Virus record (IMG/VR): IMGVR_UViG_2901984674_000003 | Length of the DNA: 64,000 nucleotides | Direction: 5' to 3' (one strand) | Source: a virus | Taxonomy: Duplodnaviria > Heunggongvirae > Uroviricota > Caudoviricetes | Shown here: piece after piece, positions 19,398 to 42,633 of the stretch | How positions within the stretch are numbered: position 1 is the first letter of the stretch | Layout: every line of letters begins with the position of its first letter | Made by a program: the position numbers and the translations under genes | The notes under the pieces: generated by a model | What the model was told of the DNA's origin: nothing | What the model saw: only the letters and a program-made list of their open reading frames with translations | The model's database searches: none

Positions 19398-19467
19398 GTG
19401 GCACGCATGGTTGCTATAATAACGGTTCGATTCCGTTAGTGCCAATAGGGTTGCCATAGACCCTATT
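19398..19467 (+). ncRNA. tRNA-like minihelix (acceptor stem plus T-arm, no D or anticodon arms) followed by a short hairpin (family 1, copy a)
   Basis: TGGCAC gcatggttgctataata ACGG-TTCGATT-CCGT ta GTGCCAA, then ATAGGGttgccatagaCCCTAT. Confidence 0.55.
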
Positions 19468-20933: not shown

Positions 20934-21445
20934 AAATATTATGGGGTGGGCTTACACCCTCAAGCTATCAGAGTTAGTCAATGTCATTACCCTCTAGTTA
21001 GGATATGGGAATACTAATGTTGACGGTAGTAAATAAAATTTAGGAAGGGAAAAATGTATTCTTTCTAATAATATAGAAATAATAGATATTTTTCTATATT
21101 ATTCTAATTTTATATAGCAGTAAGAGATGCGAATATTAATAATTTTCTAGTTTTTTTGAATAAATTATATCAAATGATACTACTTAAAAATACACTTCAC
21201 TCAACCTAATGGAGTTAACCAGTCAACAAGCTTTTAGAATTAATTCTAAAAGCTCTTGTGGACAACTTTACAACTCATTTGGCAGTCGTGCTTTGTTTCA
21301 AAAATCATTTGTAAGCTTCTTAAATTAGAAATTTAAGTTTAGCTTAGCTGGAACTAATCCGATTCCATCTGTACCATCAGTAAAAGCATTCGGTACTACT
21401 TTTTTAATATTTGTAAGATTCTTTATATTTCATTCGACTTACAAG

Positions 21446-21636: not shown

Positions 21637-21861
21637 GTTATGAACCTAGGTTAAATGACATAGGTGTAAGACCAGCAGTGTAAAAGCTTAAAAGCTGTTG
21701 TTGTTTTGAACTTAGGTTGAATGATGTAGGTTGAAGACTATATAAAATCTAGCATAGAAACTCTTGCATTTTGAACCTAGTTAAAATGACGTAAGTATAA
21801 GACAGAATACTGTATAGAGAGTTATGTTCTGAACTTAGCTAAAACAAACATAAGATAAGAC
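21637..21861 (+). CRISPR. CRISPR-like array A1: 4 repeats (36, 36, 35 and 33 nt, increasingly degenerate distally) with 30, 30 and 25-nt spacers
   Basis: The repeats are GTTATGAACCTAGGTTAAATGACATAGGTGTAAGAC, GTTTTGAACTTAGGTTGAATGATGTAGGTTGAAGAC, TTTTGAACCTAGTTAAAATGACGTAAGTATAAGAC and CTGAACTTAGCTAAAACAAACATAAGATAAGAC. The spacers are unique. Confidence 0.7.
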
Positions 21862-22074: not shown

Positions 22075-22335
22075 TGCCTTATTATATAAACTCCGTCAAC
22101 AGTAACCACCTACTAAAGTAGGTAACTTGTAGTAATACAAGTTTTGTTGTCTAGACTAAGTTCTTAGAGAACTACGTTATTTCAGTGATCATACCTAGAA
22201 ATGGTACCCTAGTTTCTAGCTCTATGAAGGCTCTGTAAACAAGCATAAGGTTAATGTGCTAGTCAACCTTGTAATAAGCTGAAATAACATTGTCGAAGGG
22301 TAACCACATGTATTTATTAACTCTGATAAATACGT
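22075..22335 (+). ncRNA. Orphan IscB omega-RNA-like scaffold (copy B) with no adjacent iscB ORF
   Basis: About 70% identical over about 240 nt to the region immediately upstream of iscB at 42370-42633. Shared blocks include CGTCAACAG(T)AACCACC(T)ACTAAAGTAGGT..CTTGTAG.AATACAAGTT and CGAAGGGTA(A)CCAC. The 5' flank (guide position) differs. Confidence 0.6.
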
Positions 22336-23215: not shown

Positions 23216-23277
23216 TAGCGATGTAGCTTAACGGTAGAGCAAGGCATGGGATACAGGTTCGACTCCTGTCATCGCTA
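23216..23277 (+). ncRNA. tRNA-like element (family 2, copy l): acceptor stem, D-arm and T-arm present, but the anticodon arm is collapsed to 13 nt. Fused to scaffold S2.
   Basis: TAGCGAT g TAGCTTAACGGTAGAGC aaggcatgggata CAGG-TTCGACT-CCTG tc ATCGCTA, followed by 'ttg' and then AAGGACGCTTG. Confidence 0.55.
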
Positions 23278-26774: not shown

Positions 26775-27257
26775 ATGCACAATTTAAGTTTGAAATCGAT
26801 GCCTAATGCTGCTCTGGATTTTGAATCTGGTAATGGTGATATTAAGCAAAGAAAACTAGCTATTATTCAGGCAAAAAAACGTAGTTTGTACTTAAAAAAG
26901 ATATTAATAGGTTTTTTTGAAACAATTCATATAAAAGTTAAATCAATCAAAGTTAACGGAAGTTTATGCCAATATACATTTGTAATTCCACATTTAGGGG
27001 GATTAATTGATTTTAAAAAGTTAAATATAGTTATTTCAGACAATTTTCCTAAAAGTACAGTTCGTATATGGATGAAAAACGGAAAATTAATTATAGAATT
27101 AAGCAATATGATTAATATTCCTGTATTATTTAAAGATTTAGTTTTAATGAATGAAGAGTATGACGTAGTGAATACGGTGATAGGGCAAGATGGTTCGGAA
27201 ATAGTCGTAAGATTATCCAATTTGTTAGACCTGTTACTACAAATACACAAAATTTAA
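26775..27257 (+). CDS. Hypothetical protein whose 3' ~70 nt overlaps the iscB remnant in another frame (deletion/fusion junction)
   Basis: 160-aa ORF. Its last ~25 codons are encoded by DNA homologous to iscB codons 42-66, read out of frame. Confidence 0.4.
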   Translation: MHNLSLKSMPNAALDFESGNGDIKQRKLAIIQAKKRSLYLKKILIGFFETIHIKVKSIKVNGSLCQYTFVIPHLGGLIDFKKLNIVISDNFPKSTVRIWMKNGKLIIELSNMINIPVLFKDLVLMNEEYDVVNTVIGQDGSEIVVRLSNLLDLLLQIHKI

Positions 27258-28432
27258 CTTTAGGAGTAGATGCTGGTTTTCACTTAGGATTATCTGTTGT
27301 TGGAAACCAACGTGAATATTATGCGTCAGAAAGCTTAAGAAAGTCAGAAAAAGATCGAATTACTAGTCGAAGAGAATTAAGACGTACTCGAAGAGGACAT
27401 TTAAGATACCGTCAAGCTAGATTTGATAATCGTAGACGTAAAGACGGCTGGTTAGCTCCTAGTATTCAACACAGATTAGATTTTACAATTAAAGAAATCA
27501 AACGTTTATATACGTTTTTACCCATTACTAATTTAGTCGTTGAAGTTACACCATTTGATAATCAAAAACTAGCTAATCCAAATATTAAAGCCTGGCAGTA
27601 TCAAAAAGGTAAGATGTATGGTTTTAAGACGATTAAGGATTATCTACTAGCTAGAGATAACTATCGTGATGCTTTAGATGGTAAACAATACCCAGCTAGT
27701 CAGTTAAGAGTCCATCACTTAGTTCAAAGAAAAGATGGTGGTTCTAATCAGCCAGATAACTTAGTTTTATTGTCAGATATTAACCACAATCAAGCTAATC
27801 ACAATAATGGTGTCTTAGCTAAATTAAGACAAAATCGGCAAAAGACGATTGATTATCGTGGAGCTTATTTTATGAGCATTTTAGCAACAAGATTAAGCAA
27901 TTATTTTGATGAATATACGACAACTCAAGGTTATCTAACCGCTAACCTAAGACAAAAGTATAAGATTGAAAAATCTCACTTAAATGACGCTTTTGTGATT
28001 GCTGGTGGAACTGATACAACCCTTAGAACAAACAATGTTTATTCGAGACAAAAGTTAAGGAATAATAATCGTATATTACAGTTGTTTTATGACGCTAAGT
28101 ATATTGATTGTCGCGATGGTAAACAAAAAGCTGGTAAAGAGTTAAGTTCAGGGAGAACTAGACGATCCCAAGAGCTTAATTATGACAATTTAAGACAATT
28201 TAGAAAAGAAAAAGTTAAAAAGGGTCGTGTTTCGATTAGAAGAGGTCATTATCAATTAAGACCACATGATGTTGTGTTAAATACCAGAACTAACAGGATT
28301 GAAAGAGTCAAAGGAGTTAATAGTAGAGGAAAGGGCATTGTTTTCCAAAGCGGTAAATATGGCACAGTTAAAAATGTAATTAGCTTATATCATGTAAATG
28401 GAATGTTGGAAAAGAAAATGGAAAATATTTAG
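27190..28432 (+). pseudogene. iscB: 5'-truncated IscB paralogue. It lacks the N-terminal PLMP domain, has no start codon and has no upstream omega-RNA.
   Basis: About 85% nucleotide identity to iscB 42740-43992 from the ARWFGNSRK codons onward. It retains RuvC-I (GVDAGFHLGLSVVG), the HNH-like segment (VHHLVQRKDGGSNQPDNLVLLSDINHN) and RuvC-III (HLNDAFVIAGG). The ORF track only calls the part from the internal Met (27614). Confidence 0.7.
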
Positions 28433-28526
28433 TTTGTTTAGGCAAACTAGAGCTTATATTCCACGACTAAAATCGTAGGTTTTACGTCCGTTTGTAATAA
28501 AAATTAATCAAAAGGAGTGGTGATTA

Positions 28527-29345
28527 ATGGACAAAAAGAAGTATATTAAACGCTTAAAGAAAGATAAAAAACAAGAGCAAAAGCAAGCTGTTCCTAAAAT
28601 TCCAACCGCTGATAAGCACCATTCACCGTTTGGTTTTATCCTAAGTGGTTACAAGGAAGTCAAGCAAAATGCTAATCAAGCTAGAATAGCTACAGCTGCA
28701 CTCTTACTACAAACAAAGCCTGAAAAAAGCTCTAGTCGCTTTGTTTTACAAGATTACGTCAACACTAAATTAGACGTATTTGCAATCGTGTCTGACATTA
28801 AAATCGACCCTGAGGATCCATGGAATAGTCAACTGTTAGTTGAACAATCTTATTTTAGTGAATACAAGTATACTCAGGGCGCAACTAGAGTTGATATGTT
28901 CAGGAAACTAGCCACTCATTTATGGATTAGGTTTTCTGATATTACTAACTTTGAAAATAGCGATGATCAAACTATTTATATCTCAGTTGGCGATACAATT
29001 CATTTCACAGCGATGGTTGGCACTTATCGTGGCCGAATTGAACATGGATTCTACGCTACTAAGTTTGGTTTAAAAGACATTACGATTGAACAAGTAGGTA
29101 TGCCTTACGTTAAAGATGACGATCCACAAGAGAACATACTCATCTGTAGCAACTATCAACGTAAGGGTGATTGGGTAGCTAAACTAAAAGTTAACCCTAG
29201 AAATTTAGAAGTTAAAAAGAGCCGATACTTAAGCTATTACGAACGCTTTAAATACTTTGAAAACGGCTTGGAGGGAGTGAAGAAATATGGGTTGGTACCA
29301 AATCGACGTGGTAGACGGAAAAGTGCATGGGAACATTATAGTTAA
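28527..29345 (+). CDS. Hypothetical protein
   Basis: 272-aa ORF, followed by two hairpin terminators (29450-29480 and 29483-29527, the latter with a T-run). Confidence 0.5.
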   Translation: MDKKKYIKRLKKDKKQEQKQAVPKIPTADKHHSPFGFILSGYKEVKQNANQARIATAALLLQTKPEKSSSRFVLQDYVNTKLDVFAIVSDIKIDPEDPWNSQLLVEQSYFSEYKYTQGATRVDMFRKLATHLWIRFSDITNFENSDDQTIYISVGDTIHFTAMVGTYRGRIEHGFYATKFGLKDITIEQVGMPYVKDDDPQENILICSNYQRKGDWVAKLKVNPRNLEVKKSRYLSYYERFKYFENGLEGVKKYGLVPNRRGRRKSAWEHYS

Positions 29346-29482
29346 TGCTAATTCCATCGAAGAAGCTGAAGCAAAAGTTGCTAAAATGCAAAAAGAAAAG
29401 TAGGAAGAAGGACTAAATATAAGTTTGTGAGATGCTTGGTTATAAATAAAAAAAGTTCCTAGAAAATAGGCTAGGAACAAGA

Positions 29483-29527
29483 CTATATACTGATAAACCT
29501 GCACTTTCAGTATATAGTCTTTTTTTA
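29483..29527 (+). terminator. Rho-independent terminator
   Basis: AGACTATATACTG...CAGTATATAGTCT stem followed by TTTTTTT. Confidence 0.6.
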
Positions 29528-29751
29528 ATTAATCAAGTTTTTCTGGTTTTGATAATACAAGTAATATACAATATGTGTATGTTATGAAGTAGGACTAGCT
29601 ACCCTATGGATTAACTTAGTGAATTGTTGTAAGGCTGAACACCCCCTATTAGTAAATGCTTTAAATTATAATTGGAAGGAAGAAGAGTAATGGATTGCAA
29701 AGGAGAAATAAAAAAAACGAGGCTATCAAAAAAATATAAAATTGAAAGACG

Positions 29752-32700
29752 GTGACACAATTGCTAACAAAACCAGAAGATAAAAAAGTAAATGATGCAA
29801 TTAATAAATTAAACTCGCAAGAGTACGTAGGAGTTTTAAATAATTTAGCATCATCTGTAATGAGGCAGACAATCTCTGCACCAAATGAAGCAACAGTTGC
29901 CTCTATATTTGAAAGAGAGTTGTACTATTTTGTTAAAAAAGAATTTGATATTACATTAAATATAGAAAAAGAAGTGACTTCCCAAGACCTTGCTATCCAT
30001 AATTTCAAAGGAAGAATTGATGCTATTACGACAAATTTAGTTATCGAGTATAAAAAGCCAGAGAAGTTACGCAAAGACAAAGATATAAGAAAAGCTCAAA
30101 CGCAGTTATCAGACTACTTAAAACAATTGCGGAAAAATAACGAAAACTATTTTGGAATTATTACTGACGGAAGTTTTTATGTCAGTGTCTACTTTATAAA
30201 AGGCAGTTTAAAGTATGATGCGATACGTCAAATTGACGGAGCTTTTTTCATTACTTTGATAAAATCAATTTTAGGCACTAATAAGAAGCAATTAGTTTCT
30301 CGGAATATTATTGACGATTTTTCTCTTGAGGGTCACTCAGTTAGTGAACTTAGTAATCTTCAAAAAGAGTTGTTTAGATGCTTAAATAATGAAATGAAAT
30401 CTGAAAAGGTACTAATGCTATTTGACGAATGGATGGACATCTTTCACTTAAGTTTTAATGATGATGGGAAAAGTAATACGATTATGGAGCGTAGGGATTC
30501 TCTTTCTAAGGTTTTAGGTGTCCCTATCGAAAATAACGAACAAGAGTACCAAGGACTTTTTGCGTTGCAAACGGCATATGCCATTTTGGTTAAATGCTTT
30601 GCCTTAAAAATTATTCCTAAAATTGGTTTCAACAGTGATATAGTTTATTTTTCTGATTTATTGGAACAATCACCTAATAATATAAAAAAACTATTTTCTC
30701 AAGTTGAAGATGGCTACACTTTTAATGCGAGCAATATAATCAATCTTATTGAAGGTGATTTCTTTTCTTGGTATCTTGATGATTCTATTTGGTCAGAATC
30801 AATTGCACAATCAATTAAATCAATCCTTGTTAAGATAAACTCTTATTCAGACGCATCTTTATCATATCAGTTTGAAACACTAGATTTATTCAAAGAACTT
30901 TATATGAATGTAATGCCCCAACCTGTACGAAAAGCTTTTGGGGAGGTCTTTACTCCAGATTGGTTGGCTGATAATGTTGTTACAACCTGTTTAGAAATGA
31001 TTGATAATGAACAATGGACTTTTCTTGACCCAACATCAGGTTCAGGCACTTTTGTTTTTAAGGCAATTGAAAAAATTGTGGAAAGATTACTTCTTGATGG
31101 AAGAAGTAATAAGTATATTTTAGAACAAATACTCTCTCGAGTACACGGTATAGATTTATCACCGTTATCTGTTCTAACAGCTAGAGTTAGCTTTTTATTA
31201 GCAATTAGACCATTTATTGATGATAATAATATGGAAATCGAGATTCCAATATATCTAGGTGACTCTGCCCGTCTACCCTTAATAACTAAATTTAACGATA
31301 AGTCTTTTGTCTCATATAGTATTGCCACACGTCAGGGAGACATTAATTTAACATTACCATTGAGCTTTGTTGAATCTCCTGATTTTGTTAGAACTGTAAG
31401 ACAATGGCAAATGTTAGTAAAAGCAGAACACGTTGATTTACTTTCTAACGCAATAAAAAAGCAATTTGCTTGCGATGAAGATATTAATCATTTTGAAAAG
31501 GAAATACTATCATTCAGTAATCAATTAGTTTCGCTTCATAAAAAAATTGGGACGGAATATGGATTAAAGTTATTACAAACTTTATTTTACCAGCACGGAT
31601 AAAGAATATTGATATTATTGCTGGTAATCCGCCATGGGTTAAATGGGAAAATCTTCCCTCAATGTATGCAAATAAGATTAAGAATGTTGCTGGTGAAAGA
31701 GAACTATTTTCTAAAAAGAATAAGGGCCTAGGTGGGGGAATTAACTTAAATCTTGCAGCCCTTATATCGAATGTAACCGCAGATAATTGGTTAAGTAATG
31801 AAGGGGTTCAAGCGTTCTTGATGCCAGATACTTTCTTAAATTCCGATTCATATGAAGGTTGGAGAAATTTCCCAAGTACAAAAGAAAATAGTATGTTTTT
31901 AGCTAGAATAGATGATTGGTCAAATTCAGGTTCTCCATTTAAGCCAGTACAAGAGAAGTTTTTAACGTATTTTATAGTTAAAAATCCGTATAGTTCAACT
32001 TTAGTTAAGTATAATAAAAAATTTCCTAAAGGAATGAATATTCTTGATATCAATTCAAATAAATCATGGAGAGATGTAAAGAAATACTTCTCAAAAGAAA
32101 AAGGTTTATTGGTGCAATTATCCGATTCTAGCAATAGGTTTAGTAGAATATATAATGCTACATTGGATGATGTTGAAAAGCTGAAATTATTGTATGGCCA
32201 AAATGATTATAAGCCACGCCAAGGGGTTGAATTAACACCTAGAGAAGTTTACGTTTTTGAAAAAGATGATGATGGAACTTATCGAAACCTTGATATAAAA
32301 GGTACAAAAATTAAACCCAATCATTTTGAAAAACTCAAATTTGAAAAAAATATTATAAGACCATTGCTTCAAAGTAAACAAATAGGCGCATTTTCCATAA
32401 AAAATAGAGATAACATTCAATATGGTTTCTATCCATACGACGAAAAAGCAGATATAATTCCGATGGAAGCTTTGGCTGATAAATATCCTGCGATGTTAAA
32501 TTATCTCCTTGAACAAAAAGAGTTTATTGATAAGCAATCTGAAAGAAGTAAAACTATGTCCAGAGGTAGTGAATTTTATGCTCTCTCCAAAGTCGGAAGT
32601 TATACATCTTTTAAATATGCAGTTGCATTTCGGGATAATACTAAGATGGTGGCATCGTTTATAGACAACTCAAAAGATGGAATGATACCTGTAAAACATG

Positions 32701-33005
32701 CACCTTTTATTAGTGTCGATAAAAATGGTATACCCTTAACTAAAGATGAAGCAAAATATTTAACTGGGGTTATGAATATGCCAATAGTAAATACGTATTT
32801 TAAGACGACTTATTCTGATCGTTCATTTAGTATTAATTTTGATATGATGATACCAAAATATAAAAAGAATAAATTTCAAAAAGAAATTGTTAAATTAGTT
32901 ACATTTGCTTTGAATAGCAATAATGAGAACGAAAAAAAAGAGATTTCTAAACAAATTGAAGTTTTATATTTTGACATGTTAGATGAAATGGGAAAAGGAA
33001 GGTAA
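29752..33005 (+). pseudogene. Type IIG (MmeI-like) restriction-modification enzyme split into two ORFs (29752..31602 and 31542..33005) by a -1 frameshift at an A7 tract (31540-31546)
   Basis: ORF1 carries a PD-ExK-like motif (RIDAI...VIEYK) and SAM-binding motif I (FLDPTSGSGTFV). ORF2's frame opens at 31542 and encodes IIAGNPPW (motif IV) upstream of its first ATG (31662). Inserting one A in the A7 run fuses the frames into ...HKKNWDGIWIKVITNFILPARIKNIDIIAGNPPW.... Confidence 0.6.
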
Positions 33006-33029
33006 GTTTTTTATACCATTTGAAAAAAT

Positions 33030-33066
33030 ACCGAGAACTACGAAAATTAGTTCTCGGTATTTTTGT
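33030..33066 (+). terminator. Rho-independent terminator after the R-M gene
   Basis: ATACCGAGAACTAcgaaaatTAGTTCTCGGTAT followed by TTTTT. Confidence 0.65.
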
Positions 33067-33494
33067 ATGCTCTTTGTGTAAACTGGTATATAGTTCCCAT
33101 AAAAAAAGCTAATCATGATTTTAAATAATCATAACTAGCTTATACACCACAATAGTCTTAAACATTCACGCTTGAGGGCAAGCAGGTCGCAACTGTTTGT
33201 CCTCTTTTCATATACAATAATACATGGCATGGATCCAAAAGTAAAGAAAAACAAAAGAAGATATACAAGCTATTATAGACTTTGCTAACAAACAACTAAA
33301 AAAACGATACTAGAATGTTATTAACACATTGCAGTAGTTTATGTTAAAATAGAACTAGCAAAAAACAGTTAAGGCTCCTTAATGTTTGTTTTGCTGTTGA
33401 AAAAGAAAGTCACATCTAGGGTTACCTAAGCTTGTGGCTTTTTTTATTTTTTAACTTTTTTGAATTTTATTTTAAAAAAGTATACAAAAACATT

Positions 33495-33523
33495 TGACTT
33501 AGAGTGTGAGATAGTGTATCATA
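33495..33523 (+). promoter_or_regulatory. Sigma-70-type promoter driving the tRNA-like/scaffold/array locus
   Basis: TTGACT, a 17-nt spacer, then TATCAT, about 135 nt upstream of tRNA-like element m. Confidence 0.45.
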
Positions 33524-33657
33524 ATAAACGTAAGGCAAAGGGTTAAGCCTACAGGGACATCAGTAAACTACATGTAAGCCTCTATCGTTCCTGTAAGCAT
33601 TAGCACAAGCCTTATAATCTTAACTTTATCTTTATTCATTTATGTACATTTTATGTG

Positions 33658-33707
33658 TAGCGATGCCAAACGGTAGATCAATGCAGGTGCAATTCCTGCC
33701 ATCGCTA
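33658..33707 (+). ncRNA. tRNA-like minihelix (family 2, copy m; acceptor plus T-arm), fused to scaffold S3
   Basis: TAGCGATG ccaaacggtagatcaat GCAGG-TGCAATT-CCTGC CATCGCTA, followed by 'ttg' and then GAGGACGCTTG. Confidence 0.5.
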
Positions 33708-33710
33708 TTG

Positions 33711-33852
33711 GAGGACGCTTGTTCTCGACAGCTTGGTTAATATCTTTGACCTCTGTATAATCGCAAATTGCATTAGTTTGTTTACGATTATGCAAGTCTG
33801 AAGAGTTCCCAAGAAGCTTATGCCACAATTAAATACAGGTTAGAAAATAACG
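33711..33852 (+). ncRNA. Scaffold S3 (tracrRNA/omega-RNA-like)
   Basis: GAGGACGCTTGTTCTCGACAGCTTGG...GAGTTCCCAAGAAGCTTATG...AAATACAGGTTAGAAAATAACG. Confidence 0.6.
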
Positions 33853-34284
33853 GTTCTGAACCTAGGCTAAATGACATAGGTTGAAGACTTACGGTAGAAT
33901 GTATCTTCAATTTTTCTAGTTCTGAACCTAGGCTAAATGACATAGGTTGAAGACGCTACTACTCATTGTGAACTTAAACTGGTTGTTCTGAACCTAGGCT
34001 AAATGACATAGGTTGAAGACAGTACTAGCGGCTCATCTGCATATATACTAGTTCTGAACCTAGTTGAATTGACATAGGTGTAAGACCATTGAAGTTCGTA
34101 TGGTGGATATCATCTAGTTCTGAACCTAAGTTAAATAACATAGGTGTAAGACATAGGTTTAATGATTGCTCCAATGGTTGAAGTTCTGAGCCTAAGTTAA
34201 ATGGCATAGGTGTAAGACTCACGTTTATGTGAGTGATTATAATTCACAGTTCTGAGCCTAAGTTAAATGACATAGGTGCAAGAC
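33853..34284 (+). CRISPR. CRISPR-like array A3: 7 direct repeats of 36 nt separated by six unique 30-nt spacers, at an exact 66-nt period
   Basis: Repeats start at 33853, 33919, 33985, 34051, 34117, 34183 and 34249. Consensus is GTTCTGAACCTAGGCTAAATGACATAGGTTGAAGAC, with 1-5 nt drift in distal units. The repeat contains the palindrome AACCTAGGTT and a potential CCTAGG/CATAGG hairpin. Spacers are non-repetitive and differ in GC content from one another. Confidence 0.85.
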
Positions 34285-34314
34285 TGAAATCATGGGCTTA
34301 ATTAAAGTCAAAAC

Positions 34315-34376
34315 AACGATGTAGCTCAATGGTAGAGCAAAGCGAGGCGACGTAGGTTCGATTCCTACCATCGTTA
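34315..34376 (+). ncRNA. tRNA-like element (family 2, copy n; D-arm and T-arm present, anticodon arm reduced to 13 nt), fused to scaffold S4
   Basis: AACGATG TAGCTCAATGGTAGAGC aaagcgaggcgac GTAGG-TTCGATT-CCTAC CATCGTT a, followed by 'ttg' and then GAGGGTGCTTG. Confidence 0.55.
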
Positions 34377-34379
34377 TTG

Positions 34380-34505
34380 GAGGGTGCTTGCTCTTCACAG
34401 TTTGGTTAACATCTTCGCAAACAAAGTTGCTGATTGCATTTCTTTGTTGAAGAGTTCCCAAAAAGCGCTGATAGCACAAATAAAGACGTCCATTGTGGAA
34501 GACTA
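34380..34505 (+). ncRNA. Divergent scaffold S4 plus one degenerate repeat (...CCATTGTGGAAGAC), immediately upstream of tnpB-3
   Basis: GAGGGTGCTTGCTCTTCACAGTTTGG...GAGTTCCCAAAAAGCGCTG is paralogous to the other scaffolds at about 75% identity. Confidence 0.45.
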
Positions 34506-34544
34506 ATGTAGTGTAGTCAGCTGAAAGACTATACATAAATTACG

Positions 34545-36026
34545 TTGGTGTTTAAAAAGGAGTTGGAAAAAATGGAAGAAAAAGTTTTAGAAAGTCGTAG
34601 AATTAGAATTTATCCTACTAAGGATCAACAAGCATATTTAACGTTTAATATGTTTGCTAATATCAAGATGTGGAACGCATTACTAGCTGAAGTTTATAAG
34701 CCAGTTAGTGAGTTAGATGAAGTTCAAGCTTTACCTAGAAACAAACAAAGTAAAGAAGTTTATAAACGCATTGAAAGAATGTCATGGGAAGAGCAACGTG
34801 ATTTGTTCAAAGGTTTACGTGGACTTTCGACTAAGGCTATTTACGATGCTGATGAAACTGTGTTTGAAAGTGGTTGGACTTTAAAAGACGCTGATACTAG
34901 CATGTATAGTTACACTTTACGTACTTTAAAAACAGCGATGAGCAACCATTTGAAAAACCCTAGACACTTTGGTATTCCTAGGTTTAAGACAACAATGGAC
35001 GTTGAAAATCAAGGTAGTTATACCTCAGGCGCTCATGTTTGTGAAATCAGTGAAGACGGCAAGTACCTTAGAGTAGGTAAATTGAAAAGATTTAAGTTAG
35101 GCTTAATTGAGATGGCTAATCACTATCCTAGTGACGGACGTTTGTATAAAGTAACAATTAAGCATGAATCCAGCGATACTTGGTATGTATCATTTGTGTT
35201 TGAACAAGCTGAGCATACAGTAAAACGTCCTAGAACTGGTTTAGCAGCTGGTATTGACTTAAACGTAACAGGTAACAGTCATATTGTTTTACAAGATGGT
35301 ACTAGATACCAATTGCCATATGACAAAATCAGAAAATTAGAACAAAAGATTGAAAAAGAAAACGTAAAACGTAGTCGCAAGTATGAACAATGGAAAAAAG
35401 AGGTTGCAATCATTGAAGAAGACAATAAAAAATCCTTAATTCCAAAGCATGTTCCTACTTTAGCCGAACGTAGCAATTACCAAAAGAACAAAAAGAAGAT
35501 TGCTAAGTTACATTTACGCATTAAAAACTTGAAAAAAGACTATATTAAAAAAACATGTTCAAAGCTTGCTAATGAATATGATGTAATCGTTATGGAAGAC
35601 CTAGCTGTTTCAGATATGGAAAAGAATAAATACCGTGCTAGAGCAATCACTAGATCAAACTTCCGTGAAATTAGAGATACGCTTACTTATATGATGGACT
35701 GGGCTGATAAAAAGATTGTGTTTATTGATCGTTGGTCACCAACTTCAAAGCGTTGCCATACTTGTGGTTACATTAAGCACAACCTTAAATTAAGCGACCG
35801 TAAGTGGACTTGCCCTATCTGTAATTCTCACCATGATCAAGACATAAACGCAGCTAAAAACATCTTAGATGAAGGCTTAGACTTGCTAGACAAAATGAAT
35901 GATTCTTGCAAGAAATGTGGGCATGAGCGTACGGTTATTACAACAGACGAAAAGTGGACATGTACAAAGTGTGGAGCTAAAAATAAAACCACACCTAAAG
36001 AAGAAAATAGTAGCGATGTAGCCTAA
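34545..36026 (+). CDS. TnpB/Cas12-like RNA-guided nuclease (493 aa) flanked on both sides by scaffold plus CRISPR-like array modules. Candidate type V-U-like effector.
   Basis: The TnpB-type N-terminus (RIRIYPTKDQQAYL...), RuvC-I (AAGIDLNVTG), RuvC-II (VIVMEDLAV), zinc finger CHTCG...CPICN and RuvC-III (HDQDINAAKNI), plus an extra C-terminal CKKCG...CTKCG finger. Its stop codon lies inside tRNA-like element o. Confidence 0.85.
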   Translation: MVFKKELEKMEEKVLESRRIRIYPTKDQQAYLTFNMFANIKMWNALLAEVYKPVSELDEVQALPRNKQSKEVYKRIERMSWEEQRDLFKGLRGLSTKAIYDADETVFESGWTLKDADTSMYSYTLRTLKTAMSNHLKNPRHFGIPRFKTTMDVENQGSYTSGAHVCEISEDGKYLRVGKLKRFKLGLIEMANHYPSDGRLYKVTIKHESSDTWYVSFVFEQAEHTVKRPRTGLAAGIDLNVTGNSHIVLQDGTRYQLPYDKIRKLEQKIEKENVKRSRKYEQWKKEVAIIEEDNKKSLIPKHVPTLAERSNYQKNKKKIAKLHLRIKNLKKDYIKKTCSKLANEYDVIVMEDLAVSDMEKNKYRARAITRSNFREIRDTLTYMMDWADKKIVFIDRWSPTSKRCHTCGYIKHNLKLSDRKWTCPICNSHHDQDINAAKNILDEGLDLLDKMNDSCKKCGHERTVITTDEKWTCTKCGAKNKTTPKEENSSDVA

Positions 36027-36070
36027 CGGTAAGGCAAGGTAACAGATGCAGGTTCGACTCCTACCATCGT
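36009..36070 (+). ncRNA. tRNA-like element (family 2, copy o) overlapping the last 6 codons and stop of tnpB-3; fused to scaffold S5
   Basis: TAGCGATG TAGCCTAACGGTAAGGC aaggtaacagat GCAGG-TTCGACT-CCTAC CATCGTTA, followed by 'tag' and then GAGGACGCTTG. Confidence 0.55.
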
Positions 36071-36073
36071 TAT

Positions 36074-36215
36074 AGGAGGACGCTTGTTCTCGACAGCTTG
36101 GTAAATATCTTTAACCTCTACAGTATCAGTTAGTTAATCTAGCAGAAAGATATTGCAAGTAAGAAGAGTTCCCAAGAAACTTATGTCGAAATTAAATATA
36201 GGTTAGAAAACAACG
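36074..36215 (+). ncRNA. Scaffold S5, in the position expected for the tnpB-3 omega-RNA/tracr
   Basis: GAGGACGCTTGTTCTCGACAGCTTGGTAAATATCT...GAGTTCCCAAGAAACTTATG...AAATATAGGTTAGAAAACAACG. It is 3'-adjacent to tnpB-3, as omega-RNAs are for TnpB. Confidence 0.6.
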
Positions 36216-36450
36216 GTTCTGAACCTAGGTTAAATGACATAGGTGTAAGACATACTCGTGGTGTCTAATTATAAGACGTTCGTTCTGAACCTAGGTTAAA
36301 TGACATGGGTGCAAGACCGTGCCTTCGATTCCTTCGCTTGGGAGATCGTTCTGAACCTAGGTTAAATGACATAGGTGTAAGACGTCTCAGGAGGAAAAAA
36401 TCAAAAATATGAGTTCTGAACCTAGTTAGAATGACACATAGGCGCAAGAC
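36216..36450 (+). CRISPR. CRISPR-like array A5: 4 repeats (36, 36, 36 and 37 nt) with three 30-nt spacers
   Basis: Repeats at 36216, 36282, 36348 and 36414 match GTTCTGAACCTAGGTTAAATGACATAGGTGTAAGAC, and the last is degenerate. Spacer 2 is GC-rich (CGTGCCTTCGATTCCTTCGCTTGGGAGATC) and spacer 3 resembles a gene start (CAGGAGGAAAAAATCAAAAATATGAG). Confidence 0.8.
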
Positions 36451-36479
36451 ATATAGAGGAGCCGATCAAAAAAATATTC

Positions 36480-37094
36480 AACGTTCAAATAACGCTTCAA
36501 GCATAACCGATTGCATAAGGGCTTTAATCAAGTCTTATCGGACATCTGCCTGTAATTCGTAGTAGGTATAGTCTGAGTGATAGCTTAGACAAGCCGAGAG
36601 ATGATTGGTAACAATTATCAAACCTAGTAAAAGCTAGGACGTTTGGTAGGTGTGTGGAAATGTGTGACGTTAGTGCTTTGCTAACCGTTGGCACTGGATA
36701 AAATAGACGCTCACGGTGTGAGAATAACCCATTGGCAGCTTAGTGTGGTAGCTAAGTGATGTGATGGGAATAACCAAAGACAGTGTTTGCCTTGACGTTT
36801 AGGAAACTAAGCTATAACAACGGAAACAAGAACGAGTAGGGTAATGGCATCGAGATTACAGTAATTTCGCTACTGGACTTGAAATCCACATGCGACGATT
36901 AAGACAAATAAAATAATTCTGAATGATTGCCTGAAAGTTGGTACTTATCATAGTAGCCACGTTATATAAAGCAAAAGGAAGTAGCAAGGTAGCTCCTTGT
37001 TGCTCAGACCTTTTGAAACGTTCGCATAATAAGCGGTAGCACATTGTAAGCAGAGTGAAAGCTCGTGCTTGAAGTGTTGTTTGAGCGTTAAATA
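36480..37094 (+). other. About 600-nt ORF-free, relatively GC/purine-rich region between array A5 and scaffold S6. Candidate structured ncRNA or decayed gene.
   Basis: There is no ORF of 60 aa or more on the + strand, and composition differs markedly from the AT-rich intergenic DNA nearby. It occupies the slot where the other units carry a tRNA-like element. Confidence 0.3.
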
Positions 37095-37222: not shown

Positions 37223-37380
37223 GGTTCTAAACCTAGTTGAATTGACGTAGGTGTAAGACCTTAGATTTTTAGGAGTTGTTGTTCTGAACCTAATTGAATT
37301 AGCATAGGTATAAGACGAGGCTGTCTATTTGCTAATTAAATAATAAGTTTTGAACTTAGTTAAATGGCACAAGCAAAGAC
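37223..37380 (+). CRISPR. CRISPR-like array A6: 3 repeats (37, 36 and 34 nt) with 21- and 30-nt spacers
   Basis: GGTTCTAAACCTAGTTGAATTGACGTAGGTGTAAGAC, GTTCTGAACCTAATTGAATTAGCATAGGTATAAGAC and GTTTTGAACTTAGTTAAATGGCACAAGCAAAGAC. Confidence 0.65.
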
Positions 37381-42349: not shown

Positions 42350-42633
42350 TGCTAGAGCGTTATGGTACGCGTCAACAGAACCACCGACTAAAGTAGGTGG
42401 CTTGTAGAAATACAAGTTGGTTGATTAGCCTAAGTTTTAAGTAACTACGTTAGGGTTGAATAGATAGGTACTTTGGAATACCACCCTAGTTCCAAACACT
42501 ACGGTTGATTATTAAACAGAGTTGAGTTCAGACTCAGTGTAATTAACATTAAACCAACCTATAACATTGGCGAAGGGTACACACGTACCAACTCTATGTT
42601 AGGTGCGAATTACGATTGAAAGGAGCTGGCATA
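42350..42633 (+). ncRNA. IscB omega-RNA (copy A): a guide-position flank plus about 250-nt scaffold immediately upstream of iscB
   Basis: The scaffold begins CGTCAACAGAACCACCGACTAAAGTAGGTGG. It is homologous to the orphan copy at 22094 and to the fragment at 2017-2047. IscB omega-RNAs are encoded 5' of the ORF. Confidence 0.6.

What the first reader, a model, noticed from the sequence alone, without database searches (positions are those of the whole stretch)
31536..31665. Type IIG R-M gene split by a single-base slip in an A7 homopolymer; candidate phase-variable restriction system
ORF1 (PD-ExK plus motif I) ends at 31602, and the motif-IV (NPPW) frame opens at 31542, 20 codons before its first ATG. 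The two frames overlap exactly at AAAAAAA (31540-31546). Adding one A gives a continuous MmeI-like enzyme of about 1060 aa. Homopolymer-mediated on/off switching of Type IIG/III R-M genes is a known phase-variation mechanism. On a mobile element that also carries RNA-guided nucleases, this would let the element toggle restriction.
Basis: seen in the sequence. Interest (0 to 1): 0.55.

Follow-up and report, generated by a model that had tools for sequence, protein, structure and literature searches.

The report
Frameshifted restriction-methylase gene, not a switch
A restriction-modification gene on a Ligilactobacillus salivarius plasmid has been knocked out by the loss of one A from a run of eight, which looks like an ordinary inherited mutation in one pig-gut lineage and not a programmed on/off switch.

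Summary
The A7 run at 31540-31546 joins two reading frames. Adding one A gives a 1084-aa protein that is 99% identical to intact proteins from other L. salivarius strains, and all of those carry A8 at this site. The protein matches a Type IIG restriction-methylase profile over its full length: PD-(D/E)xK nuclease, gamma-class adenine methylase and a C-terminal recognition domain. It is not a member of the MmeI family.

The phase-variation reading is not supported:
- The run is only A8/A7 and is simply the codons Lys-Lys-Asn in a 31% GC gene.
- The gene has a second A8 and two A7 runs. The window has 28 A/T runs of at least 7.
- A7 occurs reliably in only one set of nearly identical pig isolates (four strains, identical over 9.3 kb). 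All other lineages I read have an in-frame run: A8, or A9 in two chromosomal copies. That covers 12 L. salivarius copies including the type strain, plus the L. agilis orthologue.
- Other strains inactivated the gene differently, by a 367-bp deletion.

In the A7 state the catalytic NPPW motif precedes the first start codon of ORF2. The allele is therefore null for both methylation and restriction.

An apparent mutation hot spot at 30193-30206 is most likely an adapter-trimming artefact.

The parts
29752..31602 (+). ORF1: the N-terminal 616 codons of the Type IIG gene. The last 18 codons, after the A run, are out of frame. It contains the nuclease motif D90...E99-Y-K101 (30019-30054) and the methylase SAM-binding motif I, D426-P-x-x-G-S-G-x-F434 (31027-31053). 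Homologues start three codons in, at TTG 29761 (MLTKPED).
   Evidence: The product is an exact match to PAY29268.1 of L. salivarius.
31540..31546 (+). A7 run. It is the derived, frameshifted state of an A8 run that encodes Lys597-Lys598-Asn599 (AAA AAA AAT).
   Evidence: A8 is present in the 10 other L. salivarius copies that keep the AAT codon and in the L. agilis orthologue. Two chromosomal copies have A9 in frame. A7 is present in the window, in L002-L004 and in the error-prone assembly L008.
31542..33005 (+). The C-terminal part of the gene in the other frame. It holds methylase motif IV, NPPW (31626-31637), the rest of the methylase domain and the target-recognition domain. The first start codon in this frame is ATG 31662, after NPPW. 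The annotated 447-aa ORF2 therefore lacks the catalytic motif.
   Evidence: ORF2 equals PAY29269.1 and three other accessions.
30193..30206 (+). A 14-mer resembling the Tn5/Nextera adapter (ancestral TTTATAAAAGACAG, window TTTATAAAAGGCAG). It is the only site at which the four A7 assemblies differ. This is probably an assembly artefact, so the D151G change in the window ORF1 is doubtful.
33174..33204 (+). A terminator-like hairpin followed by a T run, about 170 bp after the gene's stop codon.
   Evidence: a consensus scan only.

Best explanation
The window comes from a large plasmid of Ligilactobacillus salivarius, carried by a pig-gut isolate of the Korean 'KLA' lineage. The plasmid carries a single-chain Type IIG restriction-modification gene of about 1081-1084 codons. 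The domain order is N-terminal PD-(D/E)xK nuclease, a helical region, a gamma-class N6-adenine methylase (motif I, then motif IV NPPW), and a C-terminal target-recognition domain.

In the ancestor of this lineage, replication slippage removed one A from an A8 run that encodes Lys-Lys-Asn. Translation from the normal start now ends 18 out-of-frame codons later. The NPPW motif and the recognition domain lie in a frame that has no start codon until after NPPW. The allele is therefore null for methylation and for sequence-specific cutting at once. This is harmless to the host because both activities sit in one polypeptide.

The deletion was then inherited unchanged by the clonal isolates.

Shown here:
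- the frames and their junction;
- the ancestral A8 state;
- family membership of the protein;
- the distribution of A7, A8 and A9 alleles among assemblies.

Inferred, not shown:
- slippage as the mutational mechanism;
- loss of enzyme function;
- that the change is not a programmed switch. Back-mutation to A8 would restore the gene and is possible, but at ordinary mutation rates.
For: - **Ancestral state.** Intact 1081-1084-aa proteins at 99% identity exist, and more than 900 homologues of about 1080 aa were found. At the DNA level, A8 is present in:
  - L001, L005, L006 and L007;
  - metagenome contigs L013, L014 and L017;
  - type strain DSM 20555;
  - the L. agilis orthologue at 77% nucleotide identity.
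- **Family.** The PADLOC REase_MTase_IIG model PDLC03630 matches residues 30-1064 at E=1.5e-130. D90, E99, K101, motif I and NPPW are invariant in 38 homologues. The AlphaFold model has mean pLDDT 83. Foldseek matches CamA and M.BseCI over the methylase plus recognition region, and PglX and DrdV over the full length.
- **Null allele.** There is no ATG, GTG or TTG between 31542 and 31662, and NPPW lies at 31626-31637.
- **Inheritance.** A7 is present in the window and in KLA001, KLA003 and KLA004. These are identical over 9344 bp apart from the adapter-like site. They were isolated in 2005-2006 on different farms and form one tight lineage (PMC5653324).
- **An ordinary run.**
  - The intact gene has A8 runs at nt 1789 and 3182 and A7 runs at 933 and 2594.
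  - AAA makes up 75 of its 103 Lys codons.
  - The window has 28 A/T runs of at least 7.
- **Independent decay by another route.** Chromosomal copies in L009, L010 and L033 carry a 367-bp out-of-frame deletion.
- **Assembly quality.** Against the ZSA5 plasmid, the window shows only two length differences in runs of 7 or more. By contrast, L008 has eight homopolymer deletions within 3.4 kb.
Against: - The A7 deletion is the only credible lesion in the window's copy. A single +1 slip would restore the gene, so a low-rate reversible switch is not excluded.
- The four A7 isolates are so similar that they provide little evolutionary time in which a reversion could have been seen.
- No read-level data were available, so heterogeneity within a culture is untested.
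- The sequencing platform of the KLA genomes could not be read directly, because the methods paper is not held. I infer Illumina/Nextera from the adapter-like artefact, which is indirect evidence.
- Loss of methylation and restriction is inferred from sequence and has not been measured.
Confidence: 0.75

Rival explanations
1. A true phase-variable (contingency) locus. Frequent reversible A7/A8 slippage turns the Type IIG enzyme on and off within populations. This would let the plasmid or host toggle restriction and methylation.
For: - The length change sits in a homopolymer inside the ORF and is the only lesion.
- A fused restriction-methylase gene can be switched off without self-restriction. 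cj0031 of Campylobacter jejuni is a documented Type IIG example, switching between G9 and G10 (PMC4889913).
- Three states exist at this site across the species: A7, A8 and A9T.
Against: - The run is A8/A7. Surveys call poly-A/T tracts phase-variable only from 10 upward, and even those cut-offs may include tracts too stable for switching (PMC6321876).
- All four clonal isolates have A7, and all other lineages have an in-frame run. In cj0031, a single culture is visibly mixed, with 75 G10 and 13 G9 colonies.
- The run is not over-represented and simply encodes Lys-Lys-Asn.
- A9T is an in-frame T-to-A substitution, not a length change.
- Other strains inactivated the gene by a deletion.
- The only independent A7 is in L008, an assembly with eight homopolymer deletions.
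Confidence: 0.12
2. A sequencing or assembly error. The real plasmid has A8, the gene is intact, and the split exists only in the draft assemblies.
For: - All reliable A7 calls come from one sequencing project.
- The same assemblies carry a demonstrable artefact 1.3 kb upstream, at the adapter-like site.
- L008 shows that homopolymer undercalls at this very run do occur in some assemblies.
Against: - Four independently sequenced and assembled strains give the same A7 with no other homopolymer difference over 9.3 kb.
- The same project called A9 and A8-type runs correctly in other strains, such as L009 and L033.
- The window shows very few homopolymer differences from a complete plasmid.
- The adapter artefact points to Illumina data, where consensus errors at 7-8-nt runs are rare. 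This last point rests on general knowledge.
Confidence: 0.08
3. Recoding. The A7 allele still yields some full-length enzyme, either through -1 ribosomal frameshifting on the A run or through RNA polymerase slippage that adds an A to the mRNA. The gene would then be leaky and not null.
For: - A -1 shift of Lys-tRNA from AAA (31543-31545) to AAA (31542-31544) would produce exactly the A8 protein sequence (read).
- A runs are known slippery sites for both ribosomes and RNA polymerase (general knowledge).
- RNA downstream folds somewhat better than shuffled controls, with z = -2.2.
Against: - All other copies read and the hundreds of homologues are single uninterrupted ORFs, so a frameshift is not the native way this gene is expressed.
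- The heptamer is T-AAA-AAA, not a canonical X-XXY-YYZ slippery site.
- There is no Shine-Dalgarno-like stimulator upstream.
- The stable hairpin starts about 40 nt downstream, which is too far to stimulate frameshifting.
- A7 is shorter than the runs that give efficient transcriptional slippage (general knowledge).
Confidence: 0.05

Closest known systems
Cj0031/Cj0032 of Campylobacter jejuni NCTC11168 (phase-variable Type IIG enzyme, PMC4889913)
   Same: A single-chain Type IIG restriction-methylase. A 1-nt change in an intragenic homopolymer splits it into two annotated ORFs, with conserved methylase motifs on both sides of the tract. Both activities are lost together.
   Different: Cj0031 has a G9/G10 tract that is visibly mixed within one culture and shifts during host passage. 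Here the run is A8/A7, uniform within a clone and in frame in all other lineages. No switching has been observed.
REBASE-derived Type IIG family (PADLOC model PDLC03630 REase_MTase_IIG; Pfam Eco57I methylase domain PF07669)
   Same: A full-length profile match. The domain order is the same, with a PD-(D/E)xK nuclease, methylase motifs I then IV (NPPW), and a C-terminal recognition domain.
   Different: The window's copy is frameshifted. No member close to it has a published recognition sequence that I could find.
MmeI (Type IIG/IIL prototype)
   Same: The same overall plan, with nuclease, helical spacer, gamma-class methylase and recognition domain in one chain of about 1000 aa.
   Different: - No significant match to the MmeI Pfam domains: PF20473 scores 13 bits against a cut-off of 27.
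- No PDB sequence hit.
- MmeI is absent from the top 50 Foldseek matches, whereas CamA, M.BseCI, PglX, DrdV and LlaBIII are present.
Frameshifted or truncated restriction-modification pseudogenes, common in bacterial genomes (for example the many inactive R-M genes of Helicobacter pylori, PMC3936762)
   Same: A strain-specific null allele of an accessory defence gene, caused by a small indel. Other strains of the species carry intact copies or copies broken in a different way.
   Different: Nothing substantive. This is the category it fits best.

Membership tests
Type IIG restriction-modification enzyme | Full-length similarity to curated Type IIG enzyme models | tested here: met
   PADLOC PDLC03630 matches at E=1.5e-130, covering residues 30-1064 of 1084 against profile positions 9-1065 of 1100. 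This applies to the restored (A8) reading.
Type IIG restriction-modification enzyme | N-terminal PD-(D/E)xK nuclease motif in the same polypeptide as the methylase | tested here: met
   D90, E99, Y100 and K101 are invariant in 38 homologues. They lie on adjacent strands in the AlphaFold model. Catalysis itself was not tested.
Type IIG restriction-modification enzyme | Gamma-class N6-adenine methylase, with SAM-binding motif I before catalytic motif IV (NPPW/Y/F) | tested here: met
   - D426-P-x-x-G-S-G-x-F434 and G625-N-P-P-W629 are invariant.
- The Pfam Eco57I domain scores 31.1 bits against a cut-off of 25.3, spanning residues 464-713.
- Foldseek matches CamA and M.BseCI at E of about 1e-18.
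Type IIG restriction-modification enzyme | Sequence-specific methylation, and cleavage at a fixed distance from the site | not testable with these tools
   This needs a methylome or biochemical assays. No literature on this enzyme was found.
MmeI family | Significant matches to the MmeI-specific domains (MmeI_Mtase and others) or to the MmeI structure | tested here: not met
   - PF20473 has E=0.052, with 13.2 bits against a cut-off of 27, and no other MmeI domain is listed.
- There is no PDB sequence hit.
- MmeI is not in the top 50 structural matches.
Simple-sequence-repeat phase-variable (contingency) locus | A repeat tract inside the ORF whose length change shifts the frame | tested here: met
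   A8 is in frame and A7 is out of frame.
Simple-sequence-repeat phase-variable (contingency) locus | A tract long enough to be hypermutable (poly-A/T of 10 or more and poly-G/C of 7 or more in the PhasomeIt survey, PMC6321876) | tested here: not met
   The longest state seen that is a length variant is A8. A9 arises by substitution.
Simple-sequence-repeat phase-variable (contingency) locus | Tract length varies among closely related isolates or within one culture | tested here: not met
   All four near-identical KLA assemblies have A7. All other lineages have an in-frame run. Variation within a culture cannot be tested without reads.
Simple-sequence-repeat phase-variable (contingency) locus | A tract that stands out from the background composition and coding needs | tested here: not met
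   - The gene has two A8 and two A7 runs.
- The window has 28 A/T runs of at least 7.
- The run is Lys-Lys-Asn written with the preferred AAA codon.
- Residues 597-599 vary across the family.
BREX PglX methylase | Full-length PglX match and neighbouring brx genes | tested here: not met
   NCBIfam PglX models score 13-38 bits against cut-offs of 400-900, and only over about 100 residues. No brx genes appear in the annotated ZSA5 plasmid neighbourhood.

The most novel reading that the evidence does not exclude
The A8/A7 run could be a low-rate but biologically used reversible switch of a plasmid-borne Type IIG enzyme in a Gram-positive gut commensal. The OFF state would have been selected in the KLA lineage, for example to admit foreign DNA during the period of antibiotic use on farms, and would be recoverable by a single +1 slip. 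That would extend homopolymer-driven phase variation of restriction enzymes to Lactobacillaceae, and to poly-A runs shorter than those currently accepted.
Probability: 0.1. Interest if true: 0.5.

Novelty: new member of a known kind. Interest (0 to 1): 0.15.

Why it matters
As it stands, this matters little. It is a strain-specific null allele of an uncharacterised member of a known Type IIG family, produced by the commonest kind of frameshift.

It has three practical uses:
- KLA-lineage strains should lack this enzyme's methylation and restriction. That could make them easier to transform, and it offers a natural on/off pair (KLA versus ZSA5 or DSM 20555) for assigning the enzyme's recognition motif.
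- The two 'hypothetical protein' entries should be annotated as one pseudogene.
- The adapter-like site shows how read trimming can create false 'hypermutation' in draft genomes. This is a useful caution for comparative work on these assemblies.

Tried and rejected
1. **Hot spot 30193-30206 as escape from an RNA-guided nuclease, or as an IS200/IS605 insertion scar.** I searched for a guide or spacer matching the ancestral site and found only the gene itself. The searches covered:
   - the window and all loci with 11-mers;
   - the window with up to 3 mismatches;
   - PLSDB plasmids;
   - one genome per species.

   I rejected this idea in favour of an artefact:
   - The site is the window's only match (12 of 14) to the Tn5/Nextera mosaic end.
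   - Every singleton change lowers that match.
   - One assembly deletes exactly the 14-mer, and two others break there.
2. **Hot spot as selection on the protein.** Rejected. Residues 150-152 form a beta-hairpin turn that varies across the family.
3. **Hot spot as templated mutation from a quasi-palindrome.** Rejected. The observed changes are not the ones the inverted repeat would template (read).
4. **The plasmid's own CRISPR-like arrays as the source of a guide.** Three of their four protospacers have TTTCA on the 5' side, which the hot spot lacks. No spacer matches the gene.
5. **Sequencing platform of the KLA genomes.** The methods paper is not held.
6. **PDB sequence searches with the protein and with a 38-sequence profile.** These gave only distant methylase hits.
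7. **Defining transposon ends and target motifs from presence/absence differences between the window and ZSA5.** The flanks were too diverged to read.
8. **L008 as an independent A7 occurrence.** Discounted, because all eight of its indels are homopolymer deletions.
Full report

Yes. The sequence reads ...ttcgcttcat aaaaaaa ttgggacgg..., with the A run at 31540-31546.
- ORF1 runs from 29752 to 31602. It passes through the run as cat-aaa-aaa-att and stops 18 codons later.
- The second frame opens at 31542, just after a taa at 31539-31541. It encodes ...IIAGNPPWVKW..., with NPPW at 31626-31637. Its first ATG, GTG or TTG is at 31662, and it ends at 33005.
- Adding one A gives a 1084-codon ORF with no internal stop.

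**2. Is the fused reading the real gene?**

Yes.
- A search with the fused protein found 917 relatives. Most are 1070-1100 aa and cover 95-100% of the query.
- The top hit is a 1084-aa protein at 99% identity.
- In an alignment of 38 of these relatives, the residues on both sides of the junction are conserved: L592 and L595 before it, and W600-D601-G602-x-W604 directly after it. The three residues encoded by the run (597-599, Lys-Lys-Asn here) vary.
- One Pfam Eco57I-methylase hit spans residues 464-713, across the junction.

**3. Organism and replicon**

ORF1 and ORF2 are exact matches to GenBank proteins of Ligilactobacillus salivarius, PAY29268.1 and PAY29269.1. The window aligns along its length with the 166.6-kb plasmid of strain ZSA5, NZ_CP123973.1. 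That plasmid carries replication, partition and transfer-type genes and several TnpB and IscB genes.

**4. What the run looks like elsewhere**

I aligned the gene from the first ten other sources fetched, then read the run in the copies found later.

| State of the run | Where it occurs |
|---|---|
| A8, gene intact | ZSA5 plasmid (L007), megaplasmid CP151159 (L005), L006, ENA metagenome contig (L001) |
| A8, gene intact | three further metagenome contigs (L013, L014, L017) |
| A8, gene intact | type strain DSM 20555 (L032) |
| A8 | L. agilis orthologue, 77% nucleotide identity |
| CAA AAA AAT (A7 but in frame) | a more distant orthologue (L027) |
| A8, gene broken by a 367-bp deletion | chromosomal copy L010 |
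| A9 followed by one T (an in-frame T-to-A substitution), gene broken by the same deletion | chromosomal copies L009 and L033 |
| A7, out of frame | the window, L002, L003, L004 |
| A7, out of frame | L008 |

L008 differs from its closest relative by eight single-base deletions, all in homopolymers. That is the signature of an error-prone long-read assembly, so I do not count it as evidence.

**5. Who carries A7**

L002, L003 and L004 are strains KLA001, KLA003 and KLA004. The window's strain belongs to the same project, with locus tag A8C44. According to PMC5653324:
- these are 'SBP' pig isolates taken in 2005-2006 on different Korean farms;
- they form one tight lineage.

Over 9344 bp (window 27662-37005) the four sequences are identical except at 30193-30206. 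A single deletion event, inherited clonally, therefore explains every reliable A7.

**6. Is the run special?**

No.
- The intact gene is 31% GC.
- It uses AAA for 75 of its 103 Lys codons.
- It contains A8 runs at nt 1789 and 3182 and A7 runs at nt 933 and 2594.
- The window holds 28 A/T runs of 7 or more.

The run that slipped is simply one of the two longest in the gene.

Surveys of phase variation use 10 or more for poly-A/T tracts, and they warn that even such cut-offs include tracts too stable to switch (PMC6321876). The documented Type IIG example, cj0031, has G9/G10, and a single culture contained 75 G10 and 13 G9 colonies (PMC4889913). Nothing comparable is visible here.

**7. Other routes to inactivation**

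In several pig isolates the gene sits in the chromosome, inside the comG operon, together with an IS1595-family transposase gene and a 135-codon ORF. Those copies carry a 367-bp out-of-frame deletion. The species therefore loses this gene in different ways, as expected for an accessory defence gene.

**8. What the protein is**

- The restored protein matches the PADLOC/REBASE-derived Type IIG model PDLC03630 over its whole length, at E=1.5e-130.
- D90...E99-x-K101, the SAM motif D426-P-x-x-G-S-G-x-F and G625-N-P-P-W are invariant.
- An AlphaFold model built from the 38-sequence alignment has mean pLDDT 83 and pTM 0.80.
- Foldseek against the PDB matches CamA and M.BseCI (adenine methylases with C-terminal recognition domains) at E of about 1e-18. 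PglX/BrxX, DrdV and LlaBIII match over longer stretches.
- MmeI-specific Pfam domains do not match, PDB sequence searches give only distant methylases, and MmeI is not among the top 50 structural matches.

'Type IIG' is supported. 'MmeI-like' holds only for the domain order.

**9. Consequence of A7**

ORF1 keeps the nuclease, the helical region and the first half of the methylase. It lacks motif IV and the recognition domain. The second frame cannot be translated from any standard start codon until after NPPW, and there is no obvious ribosome-binding site before ATG 31662. I infer that both methylation and sequence-specific cleavage are lost. This has not been measured.

**10. Rivals**

- **A low-rate reversible switch** cannot be excluded. 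A7 is the only credible lesion, and the four isolates are too similar to reveal a rare reversion. I give it about 0.12.
- **An assembly error** is unlikely (about 0.08).
  - Four independent assemblies agree.
  - The same project called other run lengths correctly in other strains.
  - The window shows few homopolymer differences from a complete plasmid.
- **Recoding** by ribosomal or transcriptional slippage is unlikely (about 0.05).
  - The gene is uninterrupted in all the other copies read.
  - The site is not a canonical slippery heptamer.
  - The only stable downstream hairpin starts about 40 nt away.

**11. A detour that turned out to be an artefact**

The four A7 assemblies differ only at 30193-30206, and each differs in its own way.

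| Assembly | State at the site (ancestral: TTTATAAAAGACAG) |
|---|---|
| window | A30203G |
| KLA001 | G30202A |
| KLA003 | A30199C |
| KLA004 | the 14-mer TTTATAAAAGACAG is deleted |
| L009 (chromosomal) | A-to-G at the base equivalent to 30199 |
| L033 (chromosomal) | A-to-T at the same base |
| L010 | a scaffold gap |
| L035 (metagenome contig) | the contig ends here |

I first treated this as possible escape from an RNA-guided nuclease, but I found no matching guide or spacer anywhere.

The ancestral 14-mer matches the 3' end of the Tn5/Nextera mosaic end at 12 of 14 positions. The full adapter is AGATGTGTATAAGAGACAG, quoted from my own knowledge of the adapter.
- It is the only such match on either strand of the window.
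- Shuffled windows give 0.58 matches of the last 12 bases with at most one mismatch.
- Every singleton change lowers the match to the adapter.
- The KLA004 deletion removes exactly the 14-mer.

The likeliest reading is that adapter trimming cut the reads crossing this site, so reads with errors in the motif survived and set the consensus. The D151G change in the window's ORF1 is therefore probably not real.

A by-product is that these are probably Illumina/Nextera assemblies. Consensus errors at 7-8-nt runs are rare in such data, which slightly strengthens the case that A7 is real.

**12. Verdict**

The gene identification is right in outline. The phase-variation idea is not supported by any of the comparative evidence available. 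The finding is best filed as a young, clonally inherited frameshift null allele of an uncharacterised Type IIG enzyme. Interest is low.

Noticed in passing
window 33853-34284, 36216-36383, 37224-37316 and 21637-21803 (+ strand); also L014 6333-6698 and the ZSA5 plasmid (L011/L012): CRISPR-like arrays of a 36-nt repeat (GTTCTGAACCTAGGTTAAATGACATAGGTGTAAGAC) with 30-nt spacers, period 66. The first array starts about 850 bp after the Type IIG gene.
- Spacer content differs between the KLA plasmid, ZSA5 and a metagenome contig.
- Four spacers match other L. salivarius plasmids with 1-2 mismatches. The targets include pMP118, pMP1046B and pBNS11-37kb.
- Three of the four targets have TTTCA directly on the 5' side.
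- None of the spacers matches a phage record.
- No cas genes are annotated nearby. A 493-aa TnpB/Cas12f-like gene (34545-36026) sits between two of the arrays.

This looks like plasmid-against-plasmid targeting by a small type V-like system.
   Followed up: partly
window 30193-30206: A false mutation hot spot. This 14-mer resembles the Nextera/Tn5 mosaic end at 12 of 14 positions. It is altered differently, deleted, or left as a gap in every short-read draft assembly of this gene that I examined. The likely cause is adapter trimming. The window's base G30203 is doubtful.
   Followed up: yes
window 36483-37083, 22095-22307, 42371-42584 and 20965-21023; tRNA-like hits at 23217-23277, 34315-34376 and 36012-36072: Rfam matches above the gathering scores:
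- a ROOL RNA;
- two HEARO (IscB guide) RNAs;
- a Transposase-1 (TnpB-associated) RNA;
- three short tRNA-like elements that flank the TnpB gene and the arrays.

Further copies of a 50-nt tRNA-like 3' half occur at 19399, 21447, 22379 and 23086.
   Followed up: no
L009, L010 and L033 (chromosomal contigs of other L. salivarius strains): The Type IIG gene travels as a cassette with an IS1595-family transposase gene and a 135-codon ORF of unknown function. The cassette is inserted between comGB-like and comGA-like genes of the competence operon. Those copies carry a 367-bp internal deletion. The 135-codon ORF is absent upstream of the plasmid copy in the window.
   Followed up: partly
window 27185-28432: An IscB-like gene directly upstream of the Type IIG region. 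It aligns to the ZSA5 iscB only from 111 nt into that gene, and no HEARO RNA precedes it. It is probably a 5'-truncated remnant.
   Followed up: no
L008 (GCA_037026665.1, contig JBANDJ010000002.1): This assembly has eight single-base deletions in 3.4 kb, all in homopolymers. They break the gene into four ORFs. This is probably long-read error and not biology, so the assembly should not be used as evidence about run lengths.
   Followed up: yes
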